Origin: Candidatus Uhrbacteria bacterium
GTDB taxonomy: Bacteria; Patescibacteriota; Patescibacteriia; UBA9934; GWF2-40-263
NCBI GenBank assembly: GCA_016219925.1
Contig: JACRJU010000013.1
Span: 180,472 to 244,471 of the forward strand
DNA: 64,000 nucleotides
Reading direction: 5' to 3'
Part shown: piece by piece, positions 3,805 to 54,447 of the stretch
How positions within the stretch are numbered: the stretch's first letter is position 1
Layout: the number at the start of each line of letters is the position of its first letter
Program-made: the position numbers and the translations under genes
The notes under the pieces: generated by a model
Seen by the model: the letters and a program-made list of their open reading frames with translations, nothing else
Database searches by the model: none
Told to the model about the DNA's origin: nothing

Positions 3805-4677
3805 CTACCAGTAGCGCCGACGGAACTCCGTCGCGTCATGGTGGTTCAGGCCCGTGTTGAGGTCGGCGATGAGCAGGCCCATCAGCTGACCGAACAGGAC
3901 CATCTGCGGTCCGTTCTGTCCGCTCTTGAAAGCTTTGACCAGATCGATCGCCCGCGCGAGCTTGACGCGCGCGGCTTCCTTGGCGACGACATCGCCGTTG
4001 CGGAATGCGCGGTGTGCCTCGATGATCGCGTCGCGGTTCGACGGCCAGTTCGAGTCATGGTTCACGATCTCGCGCAGGCCGATCGTGATGGGATCCGACG
4101 CCCGAGCAGGGGGGGTCAGTGGCGGTTCGCGTCGATCCTCATCTCGAGGCTTTCCGTCGCGTCGGTCGTCCCGACGCGGTTGCTCGCTCGTGGGCTGGCG
4201 CTGTCCTGATGGAGCCGTTGCTCCTGGCGCGGTGCGCGGAGCTTGTACCACAGGAGCGCGCGGCGCGCTCTGCGAAGGGGGAAGCAGCACGGTACGCGCC
4301 CCGCCTCCGCTTGGAGCCGCAACTGCCGCCGCAACGAGATCGTCGAAGTTCGTCACACTCGCTGCGGGTTCTTCGACCGCTTCGACCGGGAGAGCTTCTA
4401 CGATCACCGGCTTGGCGACGTCGACGGTGACCTTGGCCTCCAGCTTGGCCGCGTAGGCCGCCAAGAGGACTTTGGCTGAACCGTCCGTCAGGCCTTCAGC
4501 GTAGAAGGTGGGCCTGCGAGTGAACTCGCCGACGTTGTCGATGGTGTTAGGGTTCAGACCCCCAGCCTCGTCGTTGGTGGGCTCGGGGCTGTCCCCGAGG
4601 GCTTCGACAGCCTCCTGCGAGGCCGTCGCGTCAGGGTTGGGCCCGAAGAGGGCCTCAAAGGCTTCGTTTCTGGTCAA
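3805..4677 (-). CDS. Hypothetical protein with a low-complexity Ala/Pro/Glu-rich middle and a conserved C-terminal domain (high-GC island 1)
   Basis: GC3-rich coding frame with a diverse amino-acid composition, while the opposite-strand ORFs are Arg/Ser/Ala junk. The likely start is the TTG at 4677, 6 nt after AGGAGG; the ORF tool's longer start at 4728 lies inside the -10 box. Confidence 0.55.
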   Translation of the reverse strand: MTRNEAFEALFGPNPDATASQEAVEALGDSPEPTNDEAGGLNPNTIDNVGEFTRRPTFYAEGLTDGSAKVLLAAYAAKLEAKVTVDVAKPVIVEALPVEAVEEPAASVTNFDDLVAAAVAAPSGGGARTVLLPPSQSAPRAPVVQAPRTAPGATAPSGQRQPTSEQPRRDDRRDGKPRDEDRREPPLTPPARASDPITIGLREIVNHDSNWPSNRDAIIEAHRAFRNGDVVAKEAARVKLARAIDLVKAFKSGQNGPQMVLFGQLMGLLIADLNTGLNHHDATEFRRRYW

Positions 4678-4718
4678 GGGCCACCTCCTGATTAAGGGTT
4701 GTCCAGTCGAAGGAAGCG

Positions 4719-4797
4719 AATTTATCACAAAAACTCTTATTTGTCAATAAAAAATGACAAGCGAAAGCTTGACATTTTTAGGGAAATCAGCTAATAT
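4719..4797. promoter_or_regulatory. Back-to-back divergent sigma70-like promoters of island 1
   Basis: Plus strand: TTGACA (4769-4774), 17 nt, TAATAT (4792-4797). Minus strand: TTGACA (revcomp of 4742-4747), 17 nt, TAAATT (revcomp of 4719-4724). Confidence 0.55.
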
Positions 4798-4905
4798 CGT
4801 CCCTCACGTTCGTGTCGTTTTCAACGATTCGAACATGGGGAAAGTTTCTCAACCCGCCGCTAAGCGCGGCCAAAACGCCGCGTGAGCGGCAAGGAAGGAG
4901 GCCAG

Positions 4906-6537
4906 ATGGCCACGCAGCAGTCCCAGTCCGATACCGGTGCCTTCGGCACCGACGACGTCATCGAGCGCCTGGGCGTTCGCGTGCTCGAAGAGGGCGAGAG
5001 CCCTGCCTCCGGCACGACCGCCTTGGTGCAGTTCCGGGCCGCCCCGACCCTCAAGGCGATCGGGCGCGACCTCGCCCGCGTCGCGGCCACGACCTCCATG
5101 GGCAACCGGGAGGGCGCCCGCCGCCGGTGGCTGGACCGCATGGTCATGGTCTCCGGCCCGGATGGCAAGCCCTCGGACGTCCCGCTCTTTGTGAGCGTGA
5201 CCTTCACGGGCAAGCTCGTGACGGTCAAGGGCGTTCAGGACGTGGGGGTGAGCGCGGAGATGGAGCTCCCCGGCCTCGGCCGCGTGGAGATCCAGCCGCT
5301 CTTCACCGTCGGGATCGAGTACGTCGCCGTCAAGGAAGGCGTGCTCGTGCCCACGCGCTCCTTCACCGGCGCCCTGTTCGCCCCGAAGAGTGGCAAGGGT
5401 CCCGGCAAGTTCGTGCCCATCGACTTGGCCGACCCCCAGCTCATCGCGCGCTGGAACGGCATCGTCGAGCAGGGCAAGGCGCTCAACACCGACCACGGCA
5501 AGTGGCCGACGATCCCGGTCCTCGAGACCAAGATCGGCCGGCCCGGGCAGATGATCATCCCCTTCGCGCCCCGCTACCAGGTCAAGGAGACCTTCAACGA
5601 GCGCGGGCGTGACGGCAAGGAGCGCCAGAAGTCGATCTGGGTCATCGGGACCCGGTTCGGCAAGAAAGTGATCCTGGAAAGCCGGTCGCAGGCCCCGGCG
5701 GTCATCGACGCCAGCTCGGCAAAGCCGTTCGGCGATCTCGAGTTCGTCGTCCGTGAGGGCGAGAACTCCCTGATCGTCGTCCTGCGCGGCCGGCCCGGGC
5801 AGACGCCCCTGCCGGAGTCCATGGCGACCATCGAGCAGGCGAGCGACGGGGTGGACCCGTTCGCCGTCCTCAATCTGGACGTCATGCGCTACGAGCCCGG
5901 CCGGGCGCACACCTTCGTGGAGCGGTGCATGCAGCTTCCGCTCAACTCCGCCAATCCGCTCTACAAGAGCGCGATCAACCTCGGGCTCATCGTCGCGGGC
6001 CAGTCCACGGCGGTCGTGAGCAACCAGCTCCAGGCGCTGGCTGACGAGGCCCAGCGCAAGGCCAGGGAGTTCTGGGACGCAGCCATGAAGGCGACGTGGG
6101 AGGCCTTCAGGGTCTACACGTTGCCGGAGATCGGCGACTGCCTGCAGGGCAAGCCCCTGGGGCAGGTCATCGACCGGCTCAACCCTGAGGACGCGGCCGC
6201 GGCGTGGATCACCAGCCACGTCGAGGGCGAGTACTCGCACACGAGCCCGTTTCACCGGGTCCTGCGCGAGCGCGTCCTGCGTGCCGTCGCCCGCAAGGCC
6301 GGCTACCGCGACCCGGCCCCCGAAGGCCCCGCGGCCGACGAGCAGGCCAAGCCCGCCAAGTCCGAGGCCCCGCAGAACAGCGGGACCAACGGCGCGACCA
6401 GCCCCGTCGCCGCGGACACCGCCGAGGCCCCCAAGCCGAAGCGGACCCCGCGCAAGCCGACCAAGGGCGCCAAGCCCAAGGCCGCCGCGCGCAAGACCGC
6501 CAAGCCCAAGGGCTCCCAGCCCGCACTGCGGCAGTGA
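4906..6537 (+). CDS. Hypothetical 543-aa protein with a Lys/Pro/Ala-rich basic C-terminal tail (high-GC island 1)
   Basis: AAGGAGG at 4893-4900 precedes the ATG at 4906 by 5 nt, and the frame is very GC3-rich. The tail (PKPKRTPRKPTKGAKPKAAARKTAKPKG) resembles histone H1 / HU-tail repeats. No family was recognised for the body. Confidence 0.6.
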   Translation: MATQQSQSDTGAFGTDDVIERLGVRVLEEGESPASGTTALVQFRAAPTLKAIGRDLARVAATTSMGNREGARRRWLDRMVMVSGPDGKPSDVPLFVSVTFTGKLVTVKGVQDVGVSAEMELPGLGRVEIQPLFTVGIEYVAVKEGVLVPTRSFTGALFAPKSGKGPGKFVPIDLADPQLIARWNGIVEQGKALNTDHGKWPTIPVLETKIGRPGQMIIPFAPRYQVKETFNERGRDGKERQKSIWVIGTRFGKKVILESRSQAPAVIDASSAKPFGDLEFVVREGENSLIVVLRGRPGQTPLPESMATIEQASDGVDPFAVLNLDVMRYEPGRAHTFVERCMQLPLNSANPLYKSAINLGLIVAGQSTAVVSNQLQALADEAQRKAREFWDAAMKATWEAFRVYTLPEIGDCLQGKPLGQVIDRLNPEDAAAAWITSHVEGEYSHTSPFHRVLRERVLRAVARKAGYRDPAPEGPAADEQAKPAKSEAPQNSGTNGATSPVAADTAEAPKPKRTPRKPTKGAKPKAAARKTAKPKGSQPALRQ

Positions 6538-6600
6538 TTCCCTCCGGATCCTGCCGCTCTTTTTTTATTGTAGCGTGATAGATACAGATGACAGATCAGT

Positions 6601-6738
6601 CAGTGGGGGCCCGGCTGGCCATTTCCCCATCCGTGCTCGCAAGCTGCGCGCGGATGGGGACCCCATGGCCGCCTCCCCACTGGCCGTGACAGCTTATCCA
6701 TTCGCAAAGCGACTCTATTGCCCGAGCTTGTCGAGGGC
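6601..6738 (+). repeat. GC-rich extended-hairpin repeat, family 1, copy 1
   Basis: About 90% identical to 13221-13358. It forms nested stems: CCAGTGGGG/CCCCACTGG, GCTGGCCAT/ATGGCCGCC and CCCCATCCG/CGGATGGGG. Confidence 0.8.
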
Positions 6739-6844
6739 TGCTCTTGCAATGCGGCGTAGTCCATGCCTCCTCGACAAAATCAATCATTCATCACCGAACG
6801 AGATGGACAACGTGAAGATGAAAGGAGGAGGAACTATCCGTTGG

Positions 6845-6914
6845 TGCGATAATATGAACACAAGGGAATCCATAGGGTTCCTCCCGTGATTCCCCTGTAT
6901 TCATATCATCGCAC
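6845..6914. other. Nested inverted-repeat element upstream of the atp promoter
   Basis: The outer stem GTGCGATAATATGAA/TTCATATCATCGCAC encloses the inner stem GGGAATC/GATTCCC. Confidence 0.4.
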
Positions 6915-13358: not shown

Positions 13359-13470
13359 AATGACGATCCCTCCGACACGGTTTTTGTCAGAACCACTGGT
13401 CTCGCAGTTTCTCCTTTCGTTTCTCTTTATCCCCCGAGCTTGTCGAGGGGGGTGCACGTAGCATCTGAAA

Positions 13471-13541
13471 GCGATTTGTAACCATGTCGGAGGGAACGAC
13501 GGCGATGAGTCCGTCGGCCCGGAGACATGGTTACAAATCGC
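13471..13541 (-). repeat. Structured hairpin repeat, family 2, copy C (inverted orientation)
   Basis: An 18-bp stem (GCGATTTGTAACCATGTC / GACATGGTTACAAATCGC) closes a loop that is the reverse complement of the conserved loop. Confidence 0.8.
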
Positions 13542-13555
13542 TTCCCATTCAACAT

Positions 13556-13998: not shown

Positions 13999-14790
13999 AT
14001 GTCTTTTGAAACTATGAGTATGGAGCACGAACACGAAGCTTTTGAAAAAGAAAAATCCTGGAAAGATCAAGACGCCATGATTCAGCAAATTCTGCAAGAG
14101 GGCATGCAGGCATACGTTACCGAATTAGAGGATGCCGAACAGGCTTTTGAAACCAGCGAGCACACCCTCTGTTGTATTGATGAAGGGGTTCCCGCGGGTG
14201 ATATGCGAAGCGCTGGCTCCGGGATCTTACTTGTAGGAGCCGATCGCGCGGCGTTTATCGAAGAACTGAAAAAGGCTGGAGTGAAAGAAGTCACAAGCCA
14301 TGTCGGTTGTGGAGCCGCGGCGCTTTATCGTGAACAAAGGGGACTGACCGATCAGACCGTTGACGACGTGGCAATGGAAGGAGCGCGGCGTATGGCTGAA
14401 GAACTCGGGGTTCCATATAAGGGACACATTAACCAGCTTAGACGTCCCAAAGAATTTCATCATGCCCGTGTCGTGTATGTGGATGGAACAGGTGTCTTCA
14501 ATCCGGACAGCGTTAAAGGTTTGCCACAGGGGTTCGTGGTCAGCGAGGCGTATATGACATCCACGCAGGCCGCTTCAGAGGTTGGTCTTGCGGCGAGCAT
14601 TGCTCTGGGAGATCATGGTTTTGGGAAAAAGTTTACAAATGAGTCGCCGTTGTTGGTCGTTTTGGTTGGGGATGAATTTTCCGATGAACTGGTTGGTGAG
14701 CTTCAAAAAACTTTGCGTGACAAACCGATCAAAATGGAAGTCTGGAAGCGTCCAGTGAAACAAGAAGTTGAACTTCCGAAGGCCGCATAG
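13999..14790 (+). CDS. Hypothetical protein, host-GC paralog of the two island-2 proteins (C-x-D / HxxCGAA motif family)
   Basis: Starts 5 nt after atpC. Carries LCCIDEG, SAGSGILLVGAD and SHVGCGAAALY, which align with the motifs of the 14876-15490 and 15694-16230 products. Confidence 0.55.
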   Translation: MSFETMSMEHEHEAFEKEKSWKDQDAMIQQILQEGMQAYVTELEDAEQAFETSEHTLCCIDEGVPAGDMRSAGSGILLVGADRAAFIEELKKAGVKEVTSHVGCGAAALYREQRGLTDQTVDDVAMEGARRMAEELGVPYKGHINQLRRPKEFHHARVVYVDGTGVFNPDSVKGLPQGFVVSEAYMTSTQAASEVGLAASIALGDHGFGKKFTNESPLLVVLVGDEFSDELVGELQKTLRDKPIKMEVWKRPVKQEVELPKAA

Positions 14791-14808
14791 GCCTTCTTTT
14801 TTTTTCTC
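14778..14808 (+). terminator. Intrinsic terminator closing the atp operon
   Basis: GAAGGCC-GCATA-GGCCTTC followed by T12. Confidence 0.75.
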
Positions 14809-14837
14809 TTGACGGTTATCTTCACTTCAGGTAATAT
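14809..14837 (+). promoter_or_regulatory. Promoter of island-2 gene C
   Basis: TTGACG, 17 nt, TAATAT. Confidence 0.5.
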
Positions 14838-14875
14838 TTTACACCGTTCGTTCAACCCACAACCACAGGTGAGCC

Positions 14876-15490
14876 ATGGGACGATTGTCCACGTTTGACA
14901 GGGAAGTGATTGGCATCCTTCGAGAGGAGAACGTCCTGCAAGACGGCGAAGCGCACCTGCTTGAGTCGCCCACGGGTGTGATCGTGGTGGCCTGTTCGGA
15001 CGGCGACCAGATGCCGGACATCTTCGACCACTATCGGGACCTCGCGCGGGCGGGGGAATGGCCCGTGCGCCCGCACATGCTCTGCCTGCACGGTGGAGCC
15101 ATGCTGATCGCGCCCGACTGCCCGCTCTACCGCGCGTTCCACGTGGACGAACTGCTCCTTCAGCACATCCGCGAGGCCGAGGGACTCGACCTCAAGGGGA
15201 TCGGCACGGTCGTGCTCTACGTGCATGCCCCCTGTGGCGCGGCCGGCTTGGCGAACCTGACGGTCGTCAACCAGCTCGACATGCTCATGCGCGCCAAGGC
15301 TCGCGTCAAGGCGATCGATATGACCAATAGGGTCATCTGTTTCGTCCACGTCGACTACGGCAACGAGGGCAACGGAAGCCATAGACGTCGCACGTACTTC
15401 ATGTCCGCGGCGGGCTGGGCCGAGTTCTGGAACCGTCAGGGCCACGAGTTGTGGGGGCGCTTACTAGGTTTTCCTGTGTCGGCGAGTTGA
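14876..15490 (+). CDS. Hypothetical protein, paralog family member C (high-GC island 2)
   Basis: Motifs VVACSDGD, HGGAMLIAPD and HAPCGAAGL. GC3-rich frame. Confidence 0.6.
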   Translation: MGRLSTFDREVIGILREENVLQDGEAHLLESPTGVIVVACSDGDQMPDIFDHYRDLARAGEWPVRPHMLCLHGGAMLIAPDCPLYRAFHVDELLLQHIREAEGLDLKGIGTVVLYVHAPCGAAGLANLTVVNQLDMLMRAKARVKAIDMTNRVICFVHVDYGNEGNGSHRRRTYFMSAAGWAEFWNRQGHELWGRLLGFPVSAS

Positions 15491-15504
15491 ACAAACACCT
15501 CCTG

Positions 15505-15531
15505 ACCGTTCCTGCGAAGGGCGGTTTTTTT
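15505..15531 (+). terminator. Putative terminator between the island-2 paralogs
   Basis: Imperfect GC hairpin ccgttcctgcgaagggcgg followed by T7. Confidence 0.4.
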
Positions 15532-15619
15532 ATATCATCCAGATGTCATCCCAAGCGAGTTTGAAGAGAGCCGAAGGATTTTTCTAAATGGCTGAAAAAG
15601 AGTTATCAGCCCATCGGGA

Positions 15620-15648
15620 TTGACAAGATTGTGTAAAGTGCGTAAACT
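15620..15648 (+). promoter_or_regulatory. Promoter of island-2 gene D
   Basis: TTGACA, 17 nt, TAAACT, then AGGAGG 6 nt before the ATG at 15694. Confidence 0.5.
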
Positions 15649-15693
15649 CGTCGAGAGCTGTGCACCAACCGCACAGTCTAACGGAGGAGAATC

Positions 15694-16230
15694 ATGACCT
15701 TGCAAGATCTCGTGTCTCGTGGTGTGCTCGTGCCTCGGACGGTGCGCGAGAAGAACACCAAGCCGGTCGTCGTCGTCTGCGACAGCGAGACGGTCATCGA
15801 GGGGCTGTGCGACAAGCGCGTTTCTCGGCGCGTGATCGCGAACGTCGCCGGGGTGCTCGTCGGCACCCCCGAGAGCGATCTCCAGTCCGAGATCGGCGTC
15901 GATCCGGACAAGGTTCTGTACGAACCTCTCCAGATTGCCTTCTCCAACGGGCACCGGTACATCCTGCTGGTCGTAAACCCGGACGCGGTCTGGGGGATCA
16001 TGAGTGAGATGACCAACGTCGAGCTCATTGACCACATGATGCAGGTCGCTCGCGAGATCCGGGAGCGGATGCCCCACTTCGAACTCGACTGCGTCGTCGT
16101 CAAGGGAACGAACTACGGGGAGGTCTACACGGTCAACCCCGAGGCTTGGACGCGGTTCTACGCGACGTACGAGACGCGCGTGCTCGGTCGCCAGGATGAC
16201 GGGCTGGAGCTCGTCCCCGCCACCGTCTGA
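15694..16230 (+). CDS. Hypothetical protein, paralog family member D with degenerate His/Cys motif (high-GC island 2)
   Basis: Aligns with gene C (VVVVCDSE, VAGVLVGTPE, YILLVVNPDAVWG, CVVVKGTNYGE) but lacks the HxxC pair. Confidence 0.6.
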   Translation: MTLQDLVSRGVLVPRTVREKNTKPVVVVCDSETVIEGLCDKRVSRRVIANVAGVLVGTPESDLQSEIGVDPDKVLYEPLQIAFSNGHRYILLVVNPDAVWGIMSEMTNVELIDHMMQVAREIRERMPHFELDCVVVKGTNYGEVYTVNPEAWTRFYATYETRVLGRQDDGLELVPATV

Positions 16231-16344
16231 CGCCTCGCGTCTTCACTCATGGCACCTTCGCGACTTCTTCTACTGCACCCGTCGTCCTCCGGGTGCCTTT
16301 TTTATATTTTTTTTAATAGTCTCGCCAGCTAATCATTCATGAAA

Positions 16345-16415
16345 CAGATTTGTAACCATGTCTCTGGGCCAACGGACTCATCGCCGTTGTTCCCTCCGAC
16401 ATGGTTACAAATCTG
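16345..16415 (+). repeat. Structured hairpin repeat, family 2, copy D
   Basis: An 18-bp stem (CAGATTTGTAACCATGTC / GACATGGTTACAAATCTG) closes the conserved loop. It sits between convergent genes. Confidence 0.8.
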
Positions 16416-16437
16416 TTTTATAAAAAAACATCCATTC

Positions 16438-16980
16438 TCACGGATGCAGAATGCGGATGCGCAGACGGATGTGACTGCGCTTGGGGTTGCCGATGTAGAT
16501 CGAGTCGTAGTCCTGGAGCTCGACGTACACGTCACGCATCAGCGGCCGGGCCTTGGGTGCGCCGGTGCGCCGATGATACGTCGTGTGGCGGTCGGACATC
16601 GTACGCAGGCAAGGTTTGTCGTCCCGGCGTTCGATCACGGCCTGGATGCGCGAGAGCGTACGCTCTGCGTTCAGGCCAACCAGGAGCGGGAGCAGATCGA
16701 CTTCTGGCACGATGGGAGGAACGGTGGTGTCGTCCTTGCGACCGATGCGAAGAGGCGGGTCTCCCGCCGATTCCAGATCGAAGGTAAACGAGATCGGCAC
16801 ATCGCCTGCAACCAGCTCTCGATCACCCACCTGTTCAACGATGATCTCCATGGTGGCAACGGGCTGTTGCACAGCGACGATCGCCTTTGGTTGCGACGGG
16901 GGGGACAGGGGACTCCCATCCTGATCGCACACGAGCGTGCCGTTCTTGAAGTGCTTGCCGCATGAGGGGCAGGTGATCAT
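16438..16980 (-). CDS. Zinc-ribbon plus FHA-domain protein (high-GC island 3)
   Basis: N-terminal CPSCGKHF...C ribbon. FHA signatures: IGRKDD, LSRIQAVIERR, the HTTYHRRTG beta-turn and L.DYDSIYIGN. The ATG overlaps the vWA stop (ATGA). Confidence 0.6.
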   Translation of the reverse strand: MITCPSCGKHFKNGTLVCDQDGSPLSPPSQPKAIVAVQQPVATMEIIVEQVGDRELVAGDVPISFTFDLESAGDPPLRIGRKDDTTVPPIVPEVDLLPLLVGLNAERTLSRIQAVIERRDDKPCLRTMSDRHTTYHRRTGAPKARPLMRDVYVELQDYDSIYIGNPKRSHIRLRIRILHP

Positions 16981-18254
16981 GGCTTCTCCTCATCCGTTCC
17001 ACTGTGTTGCGGAAAGTGCATGGTGTGAACCACGCTGACCGAACCGCCCGTGAGCGTTTCGCTTCCGCGATCGACTGCGGCGCGGCTGTGCGTTCCACGC
17101 GCGAGGTGATCGACCATGGTGCGCAAGGCAGTGGCTGTGGCATGGTCGCCGGCACGTTCGTAGACGACCGAGGCGCCATTGAGGTCGCCGCGATCAGCCA
17201 TCTCCGCCCCGGCCATGTGTTGGGCGACCCTGATCACTTCTGGGTCGGGTTCGGTCTGTGCGGCCTCGTCCCACGTGAACGTTGCGTCGACAGAGAGGTC
17301 GCAGGTGAACGAATTGCCGCTCGAACCGGCTTCCGTGCCGGCAAGCGACAGCTTCAGGATTGGGTGAGTTCCGGGTTCCGGTGTCCCGACCTCGATCTCG
17401 AAGTAGTACTGCTGACCCCGCGCGCGATCGAGCGCGCCCGACGCATCGGTAAACGCGCCGTCTTGGCCGACGTTGAGCGGGCGCTGCTGGGGCATGAAGC
17501 GGGCCGCACGGATGAGGCTCGTCCCTTGCGAGATCTGTCCGGAGACGACCAGTCCTCGGACTCCGACCCCGCGCAGGAAGCCGACCTCGGAGCGGAGGTG
17601 ATCGAGCAGTTCGTCTGCTTGCATCACATGCTTGAGGAACGACCCGTTGCCGGCGCGAACCGCGAGTTGCTGCAGCAGGGCGAAGTTGTAGTCACCGCCG
17701 GTGCCGTAGACGAGCATCGGCAAGCCGTAGTCGCGCGCCCGATCGGCGCTCTTGACCAGTTGCTGGTGGTCTTGGTGGACGTTCACCGTGCTCTCGCCGT
17801 CGGTGAACAGGACGAGCCGCGTCTCGAAGCGGATATCGGGGCGTGTGATGGCTTCCTCGACGCCGCCGGAGATGAACGTGTCGCCTTCCGCCTTGATGGC
17901 CGCGATGAGAGCGCGCGCGTGACTGTGAACCTTATAGTCCATGTTCGTGCTGGGCAGATCAAGATCGTGGAAGTCGGCGAACGTGATGAGCGCGAGCCGA
18001 TCCTTCGGACCAAGATCGCCGATCAGCTCACGCAGGGCAAGCCGCACGGCCTCGATCTTTCTGCCCTCCATTGAGCCGGAACGGTCGATGACCAGGCGCA
18101 GGTCGATCGGCGGAGCGTTGGGGTTGGTGGTCGCGGGACGAATGTCCACGAACACCGGCACGACAACAGGACCCCCGTCGATGTGTGTGACTTCACGACC
18201 CAGATGCACGGTTACATGCACGTGAGTCAACTTGTGAACGAGCTGGGTACCCAT
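16977..18254 (-). CDS. von Willebrand factor A (vWA) domain protein with MIDAS motif (high-GC island 3)
   Basis: LVIDRSGSMEG (DxSxS), LITFADF and LFTDGES. GGAGG lies 5 nt before the ATG. The minus-strand promoter is TTGACA, 17 nt, TAACGT. Confidence 0.7.
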   Translation of the reverse strand: MGTQLVHKLTHVHVTVHLGREVTHIDGGPVVVPVFVDIRPATTNPNAPPIDLRLVIDRSGSMEGRKIEAVRLALRELIGDLGPKDRLALITFADFHDLDLPSTNMDYKVHSHARALIAAIKAEGDTFISGGVEEAITRPDIRFETRLVLFTDGESTVNVHQDHQQLVKSADRARDYGLPMLVYGTGGDYNFALLQQLAVRAGNGSFLKHVMQADELLDHLRSEVGFLRGVGVRGLVVSGQISQGTSLIRAARFMPQQRPLNVGQDGAFTDASGALDRARGQQYYFEIEVGTPEPGTHPILKLSLAGTEAGSSGNSFTCDLSVDATFTWDEAAQTEPDPEVIRVAQHMAGAEMADRGDLNGASVVYERAGDHATATALRTMVDHLARGTHSRAAVDRGSETLTGGSVSVVHTMHFPQHSGTDEEKP

Positions 18255-18342
18255 GGGAACCTCCGTGGAGTGGGTGCACGGACGTTAGGTCATTTTAGCC
18301 TTTTTGTCAACCCGTTGATGAGCCGGTATACTGAACGTCTTG

Positions 18343-31045: not shown

Positions 31046-32524
31046 ATGCCAGATGAATCTGCTTCGCGCCTCGAACGTCTTGAGCGTTTACAAGCCGCGA
31101 GTGTTGACCCGTATCCATCAACGACTCAACGAACGCATACCCTTCTGCAAGTACGAGAGCACTTTGAGGTTCTTGAGAAATCAGCCGAGCGTATGACTAT
31201 TGTCGGTCGCATCCGACTCATTCGCACACATGGTGGACTGACATTTCTTCAGATTCAAGATATCTCAGGCGTAATGCAGTTAGCTCTCAAGCGTGATGTT
31301 TTGGGTGAACAAGCCTATCATTTTTTTCATGAAACCATCGATCTGGGAGATTTTTTGCAATGTACAGGAACGGTTTTTCTGACAAAGAAGGGGGAACAGA
31401 CGCTTCTCGTCGATCAGTATGTTTTGCTTGCGAAAGCTCTGGAGCCTTTACCAGAAAAATGGCATGGTCTGACGGATGTCGAAGCGCGTTATCGTCAACG
31501 TGAACTCGATCTCCTTTCTCATCCGGAGGTCAAAGAGCGATTTTTGAAACGATCAAAACTGATCTCATCCATTCGTTCGTATTTGGATAATCATGGGTTC
31601 ATTGAAGTTGAAACACCGATTTTGCAGCCTATCCCCGGAGGCGCAAGTGCCCGTCCGTTTGTCACGCACCACAATGCGCTCGATGCGGATTTGTATTTGC
31701 GCATCGCCCCCGAACTGTATTTGAAACGCTTGTTGGTTGGAGGATTTGAAAAGATTTACGAGATTGGAAAAGTGTTCCGTAATGAAGGAATTGACTACGC
31801 TCATAATCCTGAATTCACGATGTTGGAGTGCTACTGGTCCTATGTGTCGGGCCGTGATAACTACATTGATTTTTTGGAGGATTTTTTGCGCACGATTATG
31901 CGAGCGACCATTGGGTCCTTGCGCGTGCCGTACGGGGAAGGGGAGATCGATTTTTCGGGTATGTGGCCGCGTAAAACTTTTCGTGAAGCGATTCTTGAAA
32001 GCTGTCAAATCGACATCGATGATTATCTAGATGAGAATGCTCTAAAAGCCGAAGTCAAAAAGAAAAAGCTCGATGTGGATTTTTCCGAATGTGTTGGGAT
32101 CGGCGAGTGTTACGATCAACTCTATAAAAAAACCGCGCGGGAAAAACTGGTTGAGCCGGTTTGGGTGTTTGATTACCCCCTCGAACTCAAGCCTCTGACG
32201 AAAGCCAGTCCGGATGATCCAAGCAAAAGCGCTTCCGTGCAGTTGGTGGTTCACGGCATGGAGGTTGTCAACGCGTACTATCACGAATTGAACGATCCTA
32301 TCGATCAACGTAAACGGTTTTTGGCTCAAGAAGCTCTGCGCGAGCGCGGGAGTCAAGATGCGCAATATGTTGATGAAGACTTTTTGCGTGCGCTTGAACA
32401 CGGCATGCCACCCACAAGCGGCATGGGGCTTGGGATTGATCGTTTTGTCGCTTTTTTGACCGGGGCCCCAAACTTGAAGGAAGTGATTTTGTTCCCGACC
32501 CTTCGTCCGAAGGGAGATTTGTAA
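31046..32524 (+). CDS. lysS: Lysyl-tRNA synthetase (class II)
   Basis: OB-fold N-terminus. Class II motifs: LRIAPELYLKRL, FRNEG and GLGIDR. Confidence 0.9.
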   Translation: MPDESASRLERLERLQAASVDPYPSTTQRTHTLLQVREHFEVLEKSAERMTIVGRIRLIRTHGGLTFLQIQDISGVMQLALKRDVLGEQAYHFFHETIDLGDFLQCTGTVFLTKKGEQTLLVDQYVLLAKALEPLPEKWHGLTDVEARYRQRELDLLSHPEVKERFLKRSKLISSIRSYLDNHGFIEVETPILQPIPGGASARPFVTHHNALDADLYLRIAPELYLKRLLVGGFEKIYEIGKVFRNEGIDYAHNPEFTMLECYWSYVSGRDNYIDFLEDFLRTIMRATIGSLRVPYGEGEIDFSGMWPRKTFREAILESCQIDIDDYLDENALKAEVKKKKLDVDFSECVGIGECYDQLYKKTAREKLVEPVWVFDYPLELKPLTKASPDDPSKSASVQLVVHGMEVVNAYYHELNDPIDQRKRFLAQEALRERGSQDAQYVDEDFLRALEHGMPPTSGMGLGIDRFVAFLTGAPNLKEVILFPTLRPKGDL

Positions 32525-32526
32525 CT

Positions 32527-32937
32527 ATGGCAAAGCGTGTGCTCGTTTTTGGGACGTTTGATGGATTACATTCTGGGCACCTCTTTTTTTTACGCCTGGC
32601 CCGTTCGCTTGGCGAAGAACTCCTTGTCTCTGTCGCGCGTGATCGTCACGTGCAAGCGTTCAAGCAAAAACAACCGCAACATCCTGAAAACGATCGTCTG
32701 CAAGCCGTTCGTGCGTTGTCCTTTGTGAAGGAGGCTGAACTTTCAGATGAGGTGCCGGGATCTTTTGGCTTGCTTGAAAAATGGCATCCCGATAGGGTTG
32801 TGATTGGACATGATCAAGATGAATTAGAAACAGCGCTTAAAGCGTGGGCTTCAGAACAGTTATCGCCTCCCATTATTCAACGGCTTGAGGATGAGTATGC
32901 ATACGGAACATGTCAAAATTGCTCTTGCCATCATTGA
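32527..32937 (+). CDS. Cytidylyltransferase-like nucleotidyltransferase (HxGH family)
   Basis: FGTFDGLHSGH, a Rossmann nucleotidyltransferase motif, as in the FAD synthetase N-terminus / CTP-glycerol-phosphate cytidylyltransferase. Confidence 0.55.
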   Translation: MAKRVLVFGTFDGLHSGHLFFLRLARSLGEELLVSVARDRHVQAFKQKQPQHPENDRLQAVRALSFVKEAELSDEVPGSFGLLEKWHPDRVVIGHDQDELETALKAWASEQLSPPIIQRLEDEYAYGTCQNCSCHH

Positions 32938-51596: not shown

Positions 51597-53025
51597 AGGA
51601 GAAAAGAGATTTGAGTTTTCGCACGTCATTCAAAACCAGCAGTCTGGTGAGGACGAGAGCTATGATATAAACGGCCACACAAACTGGAATGATTGCCATC
51701 CAACCAATTATGGGCATCAACAAACGACCAACCATGACCATAAAGAGTCCGCTGATACCAAATCGTACGGCATCAAATAACGACGGCCCAAAGCGAAAAG
51801 CCGGGATGACTGGTTTGATAAAAAAGAGTCCGCTGATGAACATAAAACTAAAACTCAATAAAGCGGATATTGCGGCGCCCTGAATGCCTATTTTTGGAAC
51901 AAGCACGGCATTCAGCAAGATGTTGATGACCATGGTGAAGCCCATGATGATCGTTTTTGTGGTTTGGCGATTTCCGGCGTTGAGCAGGGAGCCAATGGGA
52001 AAATCAAGAAAGATCGGGATTAAGACGAAAACGAGCAAGGATAACACCGGGCCAGAAGCTCGATAGGCCGATCCAGCGAGAACGACGGCTTGATTTGCAA
52101 TAAGCCACAGTCCCAGAACAAGCGGGGTGCTGATGAGCATCATGTACCACAGAGCTCGGCGCAGGAGATGAGGAACACGGGCGGGATGATGTTCCAGGGC
52201 CGCACTGATGCTTGGGTAGAGGCCGGCGGTAAAGGCAAGCGGCAAAAATTGAAAAGCGTAAGTGAATTTGTAGGCGATGCTGTAAATGCCCACCGCGGTG
52301 GTATCGATGAATTTCGAAATAAACAGAGAGTCAACATAGGAATACACTTTGACGAAAATAGCAGCGAGGGCGAATGGGAGGGCCAGGCTTAACAAGTGTT
52401 TTGCATTTGCAGAGTTCCAATGCGGCTTCAAAATGGACCAGCCAAAACGTGCGATTAGGGCGCGGCTCGACAACGTCACATTTGTCGCACTGCCCAAGAC
52501 AAGAGCAAAAGTCAGCCAGAGAAGGGATGGATGGATGAAAAGGGAAAGGCCGCCAACCATTGCCGTCACTGCCTGCCCCGTAAGCATCCCCGTGGCTTCA
52601 ATCGAAAGATTTTGGTGACCGCGCAAAACTCCATAAAAAAGCAGATGTAGGGAATCCAGAATAAGCGAGAGCCCAGCGACCATGGTGAGCATTACCACTT
52701 CCCTTTCATAATGAAGCAGAAGCGCTGCGGCGATGGCTGATGCGTAGGCAATGATGAAAAGCGGAATTTTTAAACTTAAGGCTCGTGAGAGAAGGCGCGG
52801 TGTTTCTTGTGGGGATTTGGCAATCTCACGAATAACGACTGGAGTCATGCCGAAATCAGCGATGACAGAAAAAATGAGTGCGATGGAAACGGTAAGAAAA
52901 TATTGACCGGTCCGTTCTGGCTGCATGATGCGCGCGACAAACAAAAAATAGACAAAGGCCACCAGCTTTTGTCCGACGGATGCGATAGTCAGGTACAAGG
53001 TATTTTTTGCAAGAAGCCCAGACAC
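51586..53025 (-). CDS. Wzx-like polysaccharide flippase (MOP superfamily)
   Basis: A 479-aa protein with about 14 transmembrane segments and a typical Wzx N-terminus. Confidence 0.7.
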   Translation of the reverse strand: MSGLLAKNTLYLTIASVGQKLVAFVYFLFVARIMQPERTGQYFLTVSIALIFSVIADFGMTPVVIREIAKSPQETPRLLSRALSLKIPLFIIAYASAIAAALLLHYEREVVMLTMVAGLSLILDSLHLLFYGVLRGHQNLSIEATGMLTGQAVTAMVGGLSLFIHPSLLWLTFALVLGSATNVTLSSRALIARFGWSILKPHWNSANAKHLLSLALPFALAAIFVKVYSYVDSLFISKFIDTTAVGIYSIAYKFTYAFQFLPLAFTAGLYPSISAALEHHPARVPHLLRRALWYMMLISTPLVLGLWLIANQAVVLAGSAYRASGPVLSLLVFVLIPIFLDFPIGSLLNAGNRQTTKTIIMGFTMVINILLNAVLVPKIGIQGAAISALLSFSFMFISGLFFIKPVIPAFRFGPSLFDAVRFGISGLFMVMVGRLLMPIIGWMAIIPVCVAVYIIALVLTRLLVLNDVRKLKSLFSYGR

Positions 53026-53115
53026 ACAACGGCAGGATAGCGTAAAAGCGGCACTGTGTAAATAAAAAAGGCGCTTCGTGTGGCGCCGCAGGGAGAGAGC
53101 GTCGGTGTGATGGGC

Positions 53116-53964
53116 TTAGCCCAGGAAGGTGATGCTTGTGAGCGATCCGCGTCGCCCCCGGACGGTCTGGCCGAGCGGATCCAGTCCGATTTGCGTGCGT
53201 CCGATCGTCTCGAGCTCGTAGCCCTCGATTTTCAGATTGATGGCGGCCTGACCTTCGCAGAATGTGGCGCGCCACAGCGATTGCAGAACCCGTAGGAAGT
53301 GCCCTTCGAGCAGGACCCCGACCTCGCGCTGGTTCTCCTGAGCCCAGGTGTCGCGACCGGGAACCACCACCGGCTTGTGAGTGGTCTTGTGGTAGCCAGG
53401 CGGCCACAAAGAGACCTTGCCGACGCGGAGCGGCGACTTGAGCGGCCAGCATTCGGCCGCCACCATCTGGTTGTGGTGGATCGCCGCGTCGCGAGCCCTG
53501 GCGATATGCTCGATCGAGGAGGCATACCACTCGAACCGCTGTTGACCGCGACGGTCGAAAGCGAAACACCCCTGGATGATCGTGCCCGTTGGAGGCTGAA
53601 GCGCGCTGAGGTGGCGATGCCCTTCGCGAAGGGTCGAGACTGCATCGTAGCTTACACCAACGTTCCCGGTGTCGTCGATCGAGCCGCGCGTGCGTCCGAG
53701 CAAACGTTGCAGGAGACTCGGTTCGTACGGGCTGACCGACAGCGCCCAAAAGTAGTGGGTCGCCGTCGGATCTTGACGCACGTCCGTGACTTCGCTTCGG
53801 AATCCGACGACTGCCGGAACCCGGTGGCCGACACCCGGAAGGTTGATCACAGCCACATCGGTCGGGACGTCTTCGAGACGGTATTTGAGCTCTTTGGCGG
53901 CCATGGCGCCGCGCAAAGCGTCAGAGAGCGACACGTGCGAAATGGGGATCATCATTGTAGACAC
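53116..53964 (-). CDS. Hypothetical protein (high-GC island 4)
   Basis: GC3-rich frame with balanced composition. AGGAGGAGG lies 6 nt before the GTG at 53964. The ATG at 53997 is an alternative start but would sit inside the predicted promoter. Confidence 0.5.
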   Translation of the reverse strand: MSTMMIPISHVSLSDALRGAMAAKELKYRLEDVPTDVAVINLPGVGHRVPAVVGFRSEVTDVRQDPTATHYFWALSVSPYEPSLLQRLLGRTRGSIDDTGNVGVSYDAVSTLREGHRHLSALQPPTGTIIQGCFAFDRRGQQRFEWYASSIEHIARARDAAIHHNQMVAAECWPLKSPLRVGKVSLWPPGYHKTTHKPVVVPGRDTWAQENQREVGVLLEGHFLRVLQSLWRATFCEGQAAINLKIEGYELETIGRTQIGLDPLGQTVRGRRGSLTSITFLG

Positions 53965-54009
53965 AGCGTACCTCCTCCTGTTGTTGGGCGTTGGCATTTA
54001 AACATAGAA

Positions 54010-54036
54010 ACAAAAAACAGGCAAAGAGCCTGTTTT
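54010..54036 (-). terminator. Bidirectional intrinsic terminator after rpsI
   Basis: AACAGGC-TCTTT-GCCTGTT flanked by A6 and T6. A weak TTGCCT, 17 nt, TTAAAT promoter overlaps it. Confidence 0.7.
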
Positions 54037-54042
54037 TTATCA

Positions 54043-54447
54043 CTAGCGTTTTGACCACTGTGGTGATCGGCGTGCAGATTTTTTACCAAACTTTTTTCGC
54101 TCTCGCACGCGTGCGTCGCGACTCAGCATGCCCATTTTTTTTAAACTGGAACGAAATTCTGGATTGAAATCGATAAGGGCGCGAGCAATGCCTAAACGAA
54201 TGCTATCCGCCTGTCCGTGAATACCTCCACCAGAGACGTGCACGGTCACATCGAAGACATCTTGCGTTCCTGTCTGAATGAATGGAGAAACAACGGCTTG
54301 CTGCAGAGTTGCGAGCGGCAAGTATGTTTCGAGGGGGCGATCATTGATTGTCATCTTTCCGGAACCCCCATTCAAAAGTCGCACGCGTGCGATGGCTTCT
54401 TTCCGGCGGCCAACGGCTTCGATATAAGTTGTCTGTTTTTCAGTCAT
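54043..54447 (-). CDS. rpsI: 30S ribosomal protein S9
   Basis: C-terminal ...SRDARVRERKKFGKKSARRSPQWSKR. Confidence 0.9.
   Translation of the reverse strand: MTEKQTTYIEAVGRRKEAIARVRLLNGGSGKMTINDRPLETYLPLATLQQAVVSPFIQTGTQDVFDVTVHVSGGGIHGQADSIRLGIARALIDFNPEFRSSLKKMGMLSRDARVRERKKFGKKSARRSPQWSKR

What the first reader, a model, noticed from the sequence alone, without database searches (positions are those of the whole stretch)
14778..18310. High-GC island 2/3: candidate undescribed 4-gene module (two Cys/His-motif paralogs convergent with a coupled vWA + Zn-ribbon-FHA pair)
This is a 3.5-kb block at about 66% GC between the atp-operon terminator and the helicase promoter. The plus strand has two independently promoted paralogs, at 14876-15490 and 15694-16230. 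The second has lost the putative metal ligands, making it a probable non-catalytic partner. The minus strand, convergent with them, has a vWA protein with an intact MIDAS (DRSGS...T...D). Its stop overlaps the start of a zinc-ribbon-FHA protein (ATGA), which implies stoichiometric co-expression. vWA domains partnered with phosphopeptide-binding or kinase/phosphatase proteins are typical of Ter/TerY-like stress and conflict systems and of several recently described antiphage modules. Here, however, no kinase, phosphatase, ATPase or nuclease is present. The partner genes belong to a family I cannot name. A family-2 structured hairpin separates the two halves. The combination and architecture do not match any defense or signalling system I know.
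Basis: partly seen in the sequence, partly recalled or inferred. Interest (0 to 1): 0.85.

Follow-up and report, generated by a model that had tools for sequence, protein, structure and literature searches.

The report
CA-like paralogs beside ArnAB-like switch
In this Uhrbacteria (CPR) genome, the GC-rich block after the ATP-synthase operon is not a new four-gene defence system: it holds two separable units, a set of highly diverged carbonic-anhydrase-fold paralogs and a vWA plus zinc-ribbon-FHA pair built like the archaeal ArnB/ArnA phospho-switch.

Summary
The observation mostly holds. The four ORFs, their promoters and terminators, the ATGA overlap, the MIDAS motif and the hairpin are all real. 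The block is 60.6% GC, not 66%.

The window comes from a Candidatus Uhrbacteria MAG. The block lies in a variable slot between the atp operon and a UvrD/PD-(D/E)XK helicase gene, and this position is syntenic in relatives. It is not contamination.

- **g2:** a true paralog (hhalign 99.7%) that lacks the His and Cys ligands.
- **g0:** the upstream gene, outside the finding, is probably a third paralog. Only the g0–g1 pairing survives in a distant genome.
- **g3–g4:** these match the ArnA (ZnF-FHA) / ArnB (vWA) module of Sulfolobus in architecture. The best structural hit of g3 is the ArnA FHA domain.

Only g3–g4 is an obligate pair. g3–g4 occurs without g1/g2, and g1/g2 occur without g3–g4. PADLOC gives no hit, and no kinase, phosphatase or ATPase is nearby.

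Verdict: two new variants of known kinds that share a hotspot, of moderate interest. The persistent GC3 excess is unexplained.

The parts
13999..14790 (+). g0: 263-aa protein and last gene of the atp operon (5 nt after atpC, terminator after it). Probable third beta-CA-like paralog with invariant C59, D61, H101 and C104. It lies outside the finding and has normal GC (GC3 0.47).
   Evidence: hhalign against the g1 family gives probability 64.6%, E = 6e-5 over 103 colinear columns. It is paired with a g1 homolog in the distant locus L023.
14778..14796 (+). Terminator-like hairpin plus T-run that ends the atp-g0 transcript.
14809..14838 (+). Sigma70-like promoter for g1.
14876..15490 (+). g1: 204-aa protein with a beta-carbonic-anhydrase fold. 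The putative Zn site is C40, D42, H117, C120. The first motif reads CSDGDQ and lacks the Arg of CxDxR. GC3 is 0.82.
15504..15526 (+). Terminator-like hairpin after g1.
15620..15648 (+). Sigma70-like promoter for g2 (TTGACA-17-TAAACT).
15694..16230 (+). g2: 178-aa paralog of g1 that lacks the His and second Cys ligands (VNP in place of HAPCGAA). Probable non-catalytic beta-CA-fold protein. GC3 is 0.87.
   Evidence: Family of 13 representatives. hhalign against the g1 family gives probability 99.7%, E = 3e-26.
16275..16296 (+). Terminator-like hairpin after g2.
16336..16424 (.). Repeated palindromic element with 27-nt arms and a 35-nt loop, lying between the convergent genes. A second, inverted copy lies at 13468-13544.
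   Evidence: Logan contigs break here. No Rfam family matches.
16428..16447 (-). Terminator-like hairpin after g3.
16438..16980 (-). [quoted passage not shown] G80-R81 and S110-R111 are invariant. ArnA-like architecture.
16977..18254 (-). g4: 425-aa cytoplasmic vWA protein with an intact MIDAS and a roughly 210-aa C-terminal extension. ArnB-like. Its stop overlaps the g3 start (ATGA).
   Evidence: Pfam VWA. A family profile hits ArnB (8s05_A) at E = 9e-9 and ArnE (5a8j) at 2e-4. Invariant residues.
18255..18339 (.). Divergent intergenic region between g4 and the UvrD/PD-(D/E)XK helicase gene. It contains the helicase promoter-like site at 18304-18332.
   Evidence: The g4-helicase divergent adjacency is conserved in L004, L015, L016 and L017.

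Best explanation
The block holds two separable units that share a variable chromosomal slot between the atp operon and a helicase gene in Uhrbacteria.

**Unit A: g0 (outside the finding), g1 and g2.** This is a lineage-specific expansion of the beta-carbonic-anhydrase fold.
- g1, and probably g0, keep a Cys-x-Asp…His-x-x-Cys zinc site. Both have lost the Arg of the canonical Asp-Arg dyad.
- g1 is therefore most likely a zinc protein that acts on, or senses, CO2/bicarbonate or a similar small molecule, with altered chemistry.
- g2 has lost the ligands. Since beta-CAs work as dimers, it probably serves as a non-catalytic partner. This step is inferred.
- The recurring position just after the ATP-synthase operon suggests a role in pH, CO2 or ion homeostasis. 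In relatives the same neighbourhood also holds CsoSCA-like carbonic anhydrases, a Na+/H+ exchanger and a complex-I-like hydrogenase operon. This step is inferred.

**Unit B: g4 and g3.** This is an ArnB/ArnA-like phospho-switch.
- The two proteins are made in fixed ratio through translational coupling (shown).
- The zinc ribbon of g3 tethers it to the vWA protein. When an unlinked Ser/Thr kinase phosphorylates Thr residues in the C-terminal region of g4, the FHA domain binds them and changes the output of the complex (inferred by analogy).
- The target of this switch is unknown.

A functional link between units A and B is possible but not shown.
For: Origin and synteny:
- g1 is 100% identical to HZA85_03420 of a Candidatus Uhrbacteria MAG.
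- The order atp operon-g0-g1-…-helicase-mreBCD is conserved in L004, L005, L007 and L015.

Unit A:
- C40, D42, H117 and C120 are invariant or nearly invariant.
- A weak HMM alignment places HaPCgaA on the HYGCGGA motif of 1ddz. Pfam Pro_CA_2 hits 2 of 42 members weakly.
- g2 and g1 are homologous. g0 and g1 are related at probability 64.6% with four colinear motifs.
- g1 and g0 are adjacent in the distant locus L023, outside any atp context.
- L030 has atpC, then two CsoSCA-like genes carrying CxDxR (one hits Pfam CsoSCA_cat at 24.0 bits against a cut-off of 21.5), then a g2-family gene, then the helicase.
- L027 has the atp operon, a g1 homolog, then a NuoB/L/H/CD-like operon. L016 carries a Na_H_Exchanger gene in the slot.

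Unit B:
- The Cys spacing CxxC-x10-CxxC/D is identical to ArnA C21, C24, C35, C38 (PMC12852372).
- The overlap is 4 nt in L015 and L017, and 1 nt in L016 and L020. In L004 the two genes are separated by 10 nt.
- The ArnAB mechanism is taken from PMC6509490 and PMC12852372.

Separability.
Against: - Foldseek against the PDB gives no significant hit for g1. Beta-CAs appear only at E = 0.03-0.1.
- Pfam Pro_CA does not match.
- The catalytic Arg is absent, so carbonic-anhydrase activity is doubtful.
- I could not inspect model coordinates to confirm that the four ligands converge in space.
- The g0-g1 homology is only moderate (probability 64.6%).
- The three-domain ArnB architecture of g4 was not tested. 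The C-terminal half shows only a TPR-like helical signal.
- No kinase or phosphatase was identified. Only 64 kb of the genome was seen.
- g1-g4 share an unusual GC3 signature, and a g1 or g2 paralog lies beside or one gene from g3-g4 in 5 of 7 g3-g4 loci. This could reflect a functional link that I have played down.
Confidence: 0.6

Rival explanations
1. The four genes (with or without g0) form one functional system. The vWA/FHA pair senses a signal and regulates or scaffolds the beta-CA-like proteins, for example through FHA binding to a phospho-Thr on g1 (invariant RRRT173Y) or through the MIDAS binding an acidic residue of g1/g2.
For: - The full arrangement recurs in L015, at 42-68% protein identity.
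- Partial versions occur in L004 (g1 + g3-g4), L016 and L017 (g2 + g3-g4).
- In L017 the atp operon is gone, but g2 still sits convergent to g3-g4.
- g1-g4 share a GC3 of 0.75-0.87 against about 0.5 in the flanks, both here and in L015 and L016.
Against: - All examples come from one lineage and one chromosomal slot, so conserved synteny cannot be told apart from functional linkage.
- g3-g4 sits next to atpC or a membrane-protein gene with no g1/g2 in L018 and L020.
- g0-g1 or g2 occur without g3-g4 in L005, L007, L023, L027 and L030.
- Each of g1 and g2 has its own promoter and terminator.
Confidence: 0.2
2. The block is an antiphage or conflict island: a vWA-based sensing system of the TerY, vWA-MoxR or Esr type lodged in a hotspot between core genes.
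For: - The slot has variable content, is flanked by conserved core genes and has atypical GC.
- vWA combined with FHA occurs in conflict and threat-sensing systems (PMC7159879, PMC13622651).
Against: - No PADLOC model hits any of the five proteins.
- No MoxR ATPase, kinase, PP2C or effector (nuclease, toxin) is in the locus or the window.
- There are no relatives on viral contigs.
- The other cargo of the slot is bioenergetic (carbonic-anhydrase-like proteins, an antiporter), not defence-related.
Confidence: 0.07
3. The g3-g4 pair regulates the divergently transcribed UvrD/PD-(D/E)XK helicase-nuclease gene. This would be a DNA-damage-type response, as reported for ArnA in Saccharolobus islandicus. 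The beta-CA-like genes would be unrelated neighbours.
For: - g4 is divergently adjacent to the helicase gene in every locus where its upstream side is available: the window, L004, L015, L016 and L017, with spacers of 49-143 bp.
- SisArnA represses DNA-damage-response genes (PMC10470591).
Against: - The helicase keeps the same position in relatives that lack g3-g4 (L005, L007, L030), so the adjacency may simply reflect where the insertion occurred.
- Neither g3 nor g4 has a recognisable DNA-binding domain, and direct DNA binding by ArnAB is disputed (PMC12852372).
Confidence: 0.1
4. The high-GC block is an assembly chimera or a contaminant fragment.
For: The CDSs are 62-64% GC in a 49% GC background.
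Against: - Logan contigs assembled separately span both outer junctions.
- The same gene order, with the same GC contrast, occurs in L015 and L016, which come from other samples.
- The homologs are restricted to CPR.
- The internal spacers have host-like GC.
Confidence: 0.02

Closest known systems
ArnA/ArnB motility-repression module of Sulfolobus acidocaldarius (Saci_1210/1211; PDB 5A8I, 8S05)
   Same: - It is a two-gene operon of a zinc-ribbon + FHA protein and a cytoplasmic vWA protein with an intact MIDAS and a C-terminal extension.
- The Cys spacing in the ribbon is identical (CxxC-x10-CxxC).
- Its kinases and phosphatase are encoded elsewhere in the genome, as would have to be the case here.
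   Different: - This host is a bacterium (CPR), not a crenarchaeon.
- The gene order here is vWA first, then FHA, with an ATGA overlap.
- The fourth zinc ligand is Asp in this subfamily.
- The linker between ribbon and FHA is short (about 20 aa against about 55-70 aa).
- The FHA SxxH motif reads SRIQ.
- The beta-sandwich and helical bundle of ArnB were not verified in g4.
- There is no archaellum, so the target is unknown.
Beta-class carbonic anhydrases and their non-CA offshoots (Cab, CafD, COS hydrolase, CS2 hydrolase, CsoSCA, LCIB)
   Different: - No Pfam or NCBIfam model matches.
- The Arg of the CxDxR dyad is replaced (CSDGDQ in g1, CxDEG in g0).
- There are extra invariant residues: D44, Q45, H52, R65 and H67.
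- g2 lacks the ligands entirely.
- Activity is unknown.
CsoSCA-like carbonic-anhydrase homologs outside carboxysome loci in CPR phyla (noted in PMC9164163)
   Same: In relative L030 they occupy the same slot between atpC and the helicase, next to a g2-family gene. This suggests a shared functional theme for the slot.
   Different: They are 355-366 aa, keep CxDxR (KCMDGR) and reach the Pfam CsoSCA_cat threshold. Profile comparison with g0, g1 and g2 is not significant.
vWA-MoxR ternary conflict systems, the TerY-P triad and the actinobacterial Esr pathway
   Same: They use a vWA protein together with phospho-signalling parts. FHA outputs are sometimes fused to zinc fingers (PMC7159879, PMC13622651).
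   Different: They require a MoxR AAA+ ATPase and/or a Ser/Thr kinase plus PP2C in the same cluster, along with sensor or effector domains. None of these is present here.

Membership tests
Beta-carbonic anhydrase superfamily (g1) | Beta-CA alpha/beta fold | tested here: met
Beta-carbonic anhydrase superfamily (g1) | Zinc ligands Cys…His-x-x-Cys, with Asp two residues after the first Cys | tested here: met
   C40, D42, H117 and C120 are invariant or at least 90% conserved in 19-42 sequences. They sit at strand ends as in beta-CA. HxxC aligns weakly to the HYGCGG motif of 1ddz. The 3D convergence of the ligands was not inspected.
Beta-carbonic anhydrase superfamily (g1) | Asp-Arg catalytic dyad (CxDxR) | tested here: not met
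   The motif is C-S-D-G-D-Q, and D44 is invariant where Arg is expected. g0 has C-x-D-E-G.
Beta-carbonic anhydrase superfamily (g1) | Match to Pfam Pro_CA, Pro_CA_2 or CsoSCA_cat at the gathering score | tested here: not met
   The window protein gets no hit at E<=1. Pro_CA_2 hits 2 of 42 family members, best E = 0.011.
Beta-carbonic anhydrase superfamily (g1) | CO2 hydration (or COS/CS2 hydrolysis) activity | not testable with these tools
   Needs an enzyme assay or complementation of an E. coli can/cynT mutant.
ArnA-type ZnF-FHA protein (g3) | C-terminal FHA fold with phosphothreonine-binding Arg and Ser | tested here: met
ArnA-type ZnF-FHA protein (g3) | N-terminal four-Cys zinc ribbon (CxxC-x10-CxxC) | tested here: inconclusive
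   The spacing is identical, but the ligands are C4, C7, C18 and D21 here. More distant homologs (L004, L020) have CxxC. Pfam Zn_ribbon_3 hits only weakly (E = 0.05).
ArnA-type ZnF-FHA protein (g3) | Encoded in an operon with a vWA partner | tested here: met
   ATGA overlap here. The g3-g4 adjacency is conserved in all 7 distinct loci: 4-nt or 1-nt overlaps in L015, L016, L017 and L020, and a 10-nt gap in L004.
ArnA-type ZnF-FHA protein (g3) | Phosphorylation-dependent binding to the partner's C-terminus | not testable with these tools
   Needs biochemistry. Candidate sites T373, S405 and T411 are invariant in g4 homologs.
ArnB-type vWA protein (g4) | vWA domain with a complete MIDAS | tested here: met
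   Pfam VWA 7e-15. D57-x-S59-x-S61, T126 and D152 are invariant. The profile hits ArnB at 9e-9 and ArnE at 2e-4.
ArnB-type vWA protein (g4) | Beta-sandwich plus C-terminal helical bundle after the vWA domain | tested here: inconclusive
A profile of the C-terminal half finds only designed TPR proteins (E = 6e-4), indicating a helical hairpin at residues 353-390. There is no Pfam hit.
vWA-MoxR / TerY-P / Esr conflict systems | Adjacent MoxR AAA+ ATPase, or a Ser/Thr kinase plus PP2C phosphatase | tested here: not met
   The only ORFs in the locus are g0-g4. No window ORF of at least 90 aa has a Hanks HRDxKxxN or PP2C motif. The neighbours are the atp operon, the helicase and mreBCD.
Known antiphage defence systems (PADLOC-DB v2) | A match of any component to a defence-system model | tested here: not met
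   No families hit any of the five proteins at E<=1.

The most novel reading that the evidence does not exclude
Uhrbacteria carry a bacterial counterpart of the ArnA/ArnB phospho-switch, a module so far described only in Crenarchaeota. This counterpart would be functionally wired to a previously unrecognised branch of the carbonic-anhydrase fold (g0/g1/g2) attached to the ATP-synthase operon. Ser/Thr phosphorylation would then control CO2/pH or energy homeostasis in these reduced-genome symbionts. The block would move as a GC-rich cassette between Uhrbacteria by recombination at the conserved atp and helicase flanks.
Probability: 0.15. Interest if true: 0.65.

Novelty: new variant of a known kind. 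Interest (0 to 1): 0.45.

Why it matters
- **Function for CPR hypotheticals.** CPR/Patescibacteria genomes are full of unannotated genes. This work gives three such families a fold and a testable chemistry: a zinc site on a beta-carbonic-anhydrase scaffold with an altered dyad, plus a ligand-less paralog. Their repeated position next to the ATP-synthase operon points to a bioenergetic or pH/CO2 role.
- **Wider reach for the ArnAB design.** The two-gene ZnF-FHA + vWA design is experimentally understood only in Sulfolobales. A CPR version bears on where that module came from and on Ser/Thr signalling in minimal bacteria.
- **A caution on GC islands.** Here the GC3 excess of the same genes persists across relatives with low-GC flanks. 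A high-GC island in a MAG is therefore not automatically foreign or defence-related.

Tried and rejected
- **Pfam, NCBIfam and PADLOC on the five proteins:** only the vWA domain was recognised.
- **BLASTP of g1 against g2 and g0:** not significant. Profiles were needed.
- **Word-indexed homolog search for g2:** it found only itself. The exhaustive HMMER search found 13 representatives.
- **Profile searches of the g1, g0 and g3 families against PDB sequences:** nothing significant.
- **Foldseek of the g1 model against the PDB:** not significant. The afdb50 library was unavailable.
- **hhalign of the L030 CsoSCA-like proteins against the g0/g1/g2 families:** not significant.
- **Rfam on the whole window:** no hit, so the hairpin is not a known RNA family.
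- **Viral-contig scans for the g1 and g3 families:** nothing.
- **Paralogs of g1-g4 in the other two high-GC islands:** none. Those islands' ORFs have no Pfam hits.
- **Contamination or chimera:** rejected.
- **Defence system:** rejected as the leading reading (and the genomic context).

Full report
**1. What is in the sequence**

Consensus scans find sigma70-like promoters before g1 and g2. They find terminator-like hairpins after the upstream gene g0 (14778-14796), after g1, after g2 and, on the minus strand, after g3. A promoter for the downstream helicase gene lies at 18304-18332.

The g4 stop and the g3 start overlap as ATGA.

A hairpin with 27-nt arms and a 35-nt loop sits between the convergent gene pairs at 16336-16424. 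It folds at -48.7 kcal/mol with z = -10.8.

The GC content needs correcting. The stated interval is 60.6% GC, not 66%. The CDSs are 62-64% GC, with GC3 of 0.75-0.87. The three internal or left-hand spacers are 42-47%. The rest of the window is 48.9%.

**2. Where the window comes from, and whether the island is real**

g1 is identical to HZA85_03420 of a Candidatus Uhrbacteria MAG.

Logan contigs assembled separately from run SRR12113407 span atpC-g0-g1-g2 and g3-g4-helicase-mreBCD-PBP2. They break only at the repeated hairpin.

The wider window is core genome: aminoacyl-tRNA synthetases, ClpB, PriA, MurJ, alanine racemase and the atp operon.

In related Uhrbacteria the order atp operon, g0, g1, variable genes, UvrD/PD-(D/E)XK helicase is conserved. 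Contamination or chimerism is therefore excluded.

**3. The plus-strand paralogs**

*g1.*
- It has 51 homologs, all from CPR bacteria, and none has a Pfam domain.
- The invariant residues are C40, D42, D44, H52, R65, G73-G74, H117, P119, C120 and T173-Y174.
- An AlphaFold model built on 19 sequences has pLDDT 90.
- The invariant Cys-x-Asp and His-x-x-Cys motifs sit at the ends of core strands, like the beta-CA zinc ligands.
- A weak HMM alignment puts HaPCgaA on the HYGCGGA motif of the Porphyridium enzyme.
- Pfam Pro_CA_2 hits 2 of 42 family members weakly.

Three things count against a simple membership call. Foldseek gives nothing significant. No Pfam model reaches threshold. The Arg of the universal CxDxR dyad is replaced, since the motif reads CSDGDQ.

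I therefore call g1 a divergent branch of the superfamily that probably keeps its metal site. I do not call it a carbonic anhydrase.

*g2.*
- BLASTP against g1 shows nothing.
- The exhaustive HMMER search found a 13-member family.
- hhalign against the g1 family gives probability 99.7% and E = 3e-26 over 179 columns.
- g2 has VNP where g1 has HAPCGAA, so the His and second Cys are gone.
- Two members, P0070 and P0073, are intermediates.

*g0.*
- This gene (13999-14790) lies outside the finding and has normal GC. It starts 5 nt after atpC and is followed by the operon terminator.
- It carries invariant C59-x-D61 and H101-x-x-C104-G-A-A.
- It aligns to the g1 family over 103 colinear columns, with probability 64.6% and E = 6e-5.
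- I rate it a probable third paralog.

*Conserved partners.* In a distant Patescibacteria genome (L023, a 963-kb contig), a g1 homolog is followed directly by a g0 homolog (E = 8e-49). The context there has no atp operon. g0-g1 is thus the pairing that survives rearrangement.

**4. The minus-strand pair**

*g4.* It has a vWA domain (Pfam 7e-15). The MIDAS residues D57, S59, S61, T126 and D152 are invariant.

*g3.*
- It gets no Pfam FHA hit itself, but 5 of 10 family members do weakly.
- Its model has pLDDT 84.
- G80-R81 and S110-R111, the phosphothreonine-contacting positions of FHA domains, are invariant.
- The N-terminal ribbon is C4, C7, C18, D21. More distant homologs have Cys at the fourth position.
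- The spacing CxxC-x10-CxxC equals that of ArnA C21, C24, C35, C38 (PMC12852372).

*Match to ArnAB.* A profile of g4 homologs hits ArnB (8s05_A) at 9e-9 and ArnE (5a8j) at 2e-4. These are the best prokaryotic solved matches.

ArnA (ZnF + FHA) and ArnB (vWA + beta-sandwich + helical bundle) are an operon-encoded pair. The zinc finger tethers unphosphorylated ArnB. The FHA domain binds ArnB's phosphorylated C-terminal threonines. The kinases (ArnC, ArnD) and PP2A are encoded elsewhere (PMC6509490, PMC12852372, PMC5007285).

So the lack of a kinase next to g3-g4 does not argue against this model. I found no Hanks or PP2C motif in the 64-kb window, but I could not scan the rest of the genome.

The C-terminal half of g4 could not be modelled. 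Its profile shows only a TPR-like helical hairpin.

**5. Is it one module?**

Across distinct loci the arrangements are as follows.

| Locus | Arrangement |
|---|---|
| Window, L015 | atpC-g0-g1-g2 >< g3-g4 <> helicase |
| L004 | g0-g1 >< g3-g4 <> helicase (no g2) |
| L016 | g2-NhaP >< g3-g4 <> helicase |
| L017 | DEAH helicase-g2 >< g3-g4 <> helicase |
| L018 | atpC >< g3-g4 |
| L020 | atpC-membrane protein >< g3-g4 |
| L005 | g0-g1-helicase |
| L007 | g0-g1-g2-like-helicase |
| L027 | atp operon-g1-complex-I/hydrogenase-like operon |
| L030 | atpC-two CsoSCA-like genes-g2-helicase |
| L023 | g1-g0, elsewhere in the genome |

Only g3-g4 is always together. It is adjacent in all 7 loci, with 4-nt or 1-nt overlaps in five of them, including the window, and a 10-nt gap in L004.

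The carbonic-anhydrase-like genes and the vWA/FHA pair each occur without the other.

All the joint occurrences come from one lineage and one chromosomal slot. They cannot separate function from synteny.

PADLOC finds nothing, and neither the g1 nor the g3 family, the two scanned, appears on viral contigs.

**6. Most likely mechanism**

*Unit A (g0, g1, g2).* These are zinc-site proteins on a beta-CA scaffold, plus a ligand-less paralog that may pair with them. Their location ties them to the ATP synthase.

The slot's other cargo in relatives fits the same theme. It includes CsoSCA-like carbonic anhydrases that keep CxDxR and reach the Pfam threshold, a Na+/H+ exchanger and a proton-pumping hydrogenase-like operon. 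This points to CO2, bicarbonate, pH or ion homeostasis.

What is shown: the fold, the motif conservation, the paralogy and the neighbourhoods. What is inferred: metal binding, dimerisation and the physiological role.

*Unit B (g4, g3).* This is an ArnAB-like phospho-switch made in fixed stoichiometry.

What is shown: the domain content, the conserved binding residues and the translational coupling. What is inferred: kinase input and output. The target is unknown.

A link between units A and B, or to the divergent helicase gene, remains possible but untested.

**7. Novelty and score**

Neither unit is a new kind of system.

The carbonic-anhydrase-like families are unannotated and depart from the defining dyad.

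The papers I read describe the ArnA family as largely confined to Crenarchaeota within the Archaea (PMC10470591, PMC6509490). None of them reports a bacterial ZnF-FHA + vWA gene pair, although ArnB-like architectures in bacteria are noted (PMC12852372).

I rate this as a new variant of known kinds, with interest 0.45.

The unexplained point is the GC3 excess of these genes, which recurs in relatives with low-GC flanks.

Noticed in passing
window 13468-13544 and 16336-16424 (possible degenerate arm at 32516-32531): This is a palindromic element of about 89 nt with 27-nt arms. Two copies are present in opposite orientation: the loop of one is the reverse complement of the loop of the other. One copy lies inside the atp operon, in a spacer of about 370 nt between atpD and the likely atpC start. 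No Rfam family matches. Logan contigs break at the element. Among the 28 loci held at that point (L001-L028), it occurs only in those from this genome. It looks like a MITE or REP-type repeat.
   Followed up: partly
window 14876-18254; L015:2880-5995; L016:6239-9936; g1 homologs at about 8001-8600 in L004-L014: The GC3 excess of g1-g4 is 0.75-0.87 against about 0.5 in the flanks. It is not special to this genome. It recurs in L015 and L016, which have low-GC flanks. g1 homologs are GC-richer than their surroundings in most of the 12 genomes examined, and g2 homologs reach GC3 0.77-0.92 wherever GC3 was computed. The cause could be recurrent cassette exchange from high-GC Uhrbacteria or selection. 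It is not resolved.
   Followed up: partly
window 3805-6900 and 52856-54054: Two further high-GC islands (62-69% GC) carry ORFs with no Pfam hits and no similarity to g1-g4. The 551-aa ORF at 4882-6537 has a 35%-identical homolog upstream of the atp operon in L003, so island 1 is also at least partly syntenic.
   Followed up: partly
L030:3657-5917 (also L031): In a related Uhrbacterium the slot between atpC and the helicase holds two tandem 355-366-aa paralogs with a canonical KCMDGR (CxDxR) motif. One reaches the Pfam CsoSCA_cat gathering score. A g2-family gene follows them. These are carboxysome-type carbonic-anhydrase homologs placed next to an ATP-synthase operon in a non-autotroph.
   Followed up: partly
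L027:6001-12705: A g1 homolog (40% identity) lies between the atp operon and a NuoB/NuoL/NuoH/NuoCD-NiFe-hydrogenase-like operon (group 4 hydrogenase or complex-I-like). This is another bioenergetic neighbourhood for the family. In L011 a g1 homolog is divergent from a gene like ATP-synthase subunit a.
   Followed up: no
L016:8061-9266 and L020:2242-3345: Other cargo occupies the same slot in relatives: a Na+/H+ exchanger gene (Pfam Na_H_Exchanger) and a 367-aa predicted membrane protein. The position between atpC and the helicase therefore behaves as an insertion hotspot.
   Followed up: no
window 14852-15445(-), 15535-16077(-), 16339-16965(+), 17004-18074(+): Long antisense ORFs (180-356 aa) overlap g1-g4. 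They are the expected by-product of high GC3 and have no independent support.
   Followed up: no
window 16977-18254, g4 residues 353-411: The C-terminal region of g4 has a TPR-like motif (GDxxGAxxxYxRAGDxxTA) and invariant T373, S405 and T411 in 5 homologs. These are candidate phospho-acceptor sites analogous to the phosphorylated helical bundle of ArnB.
   Followed up: no
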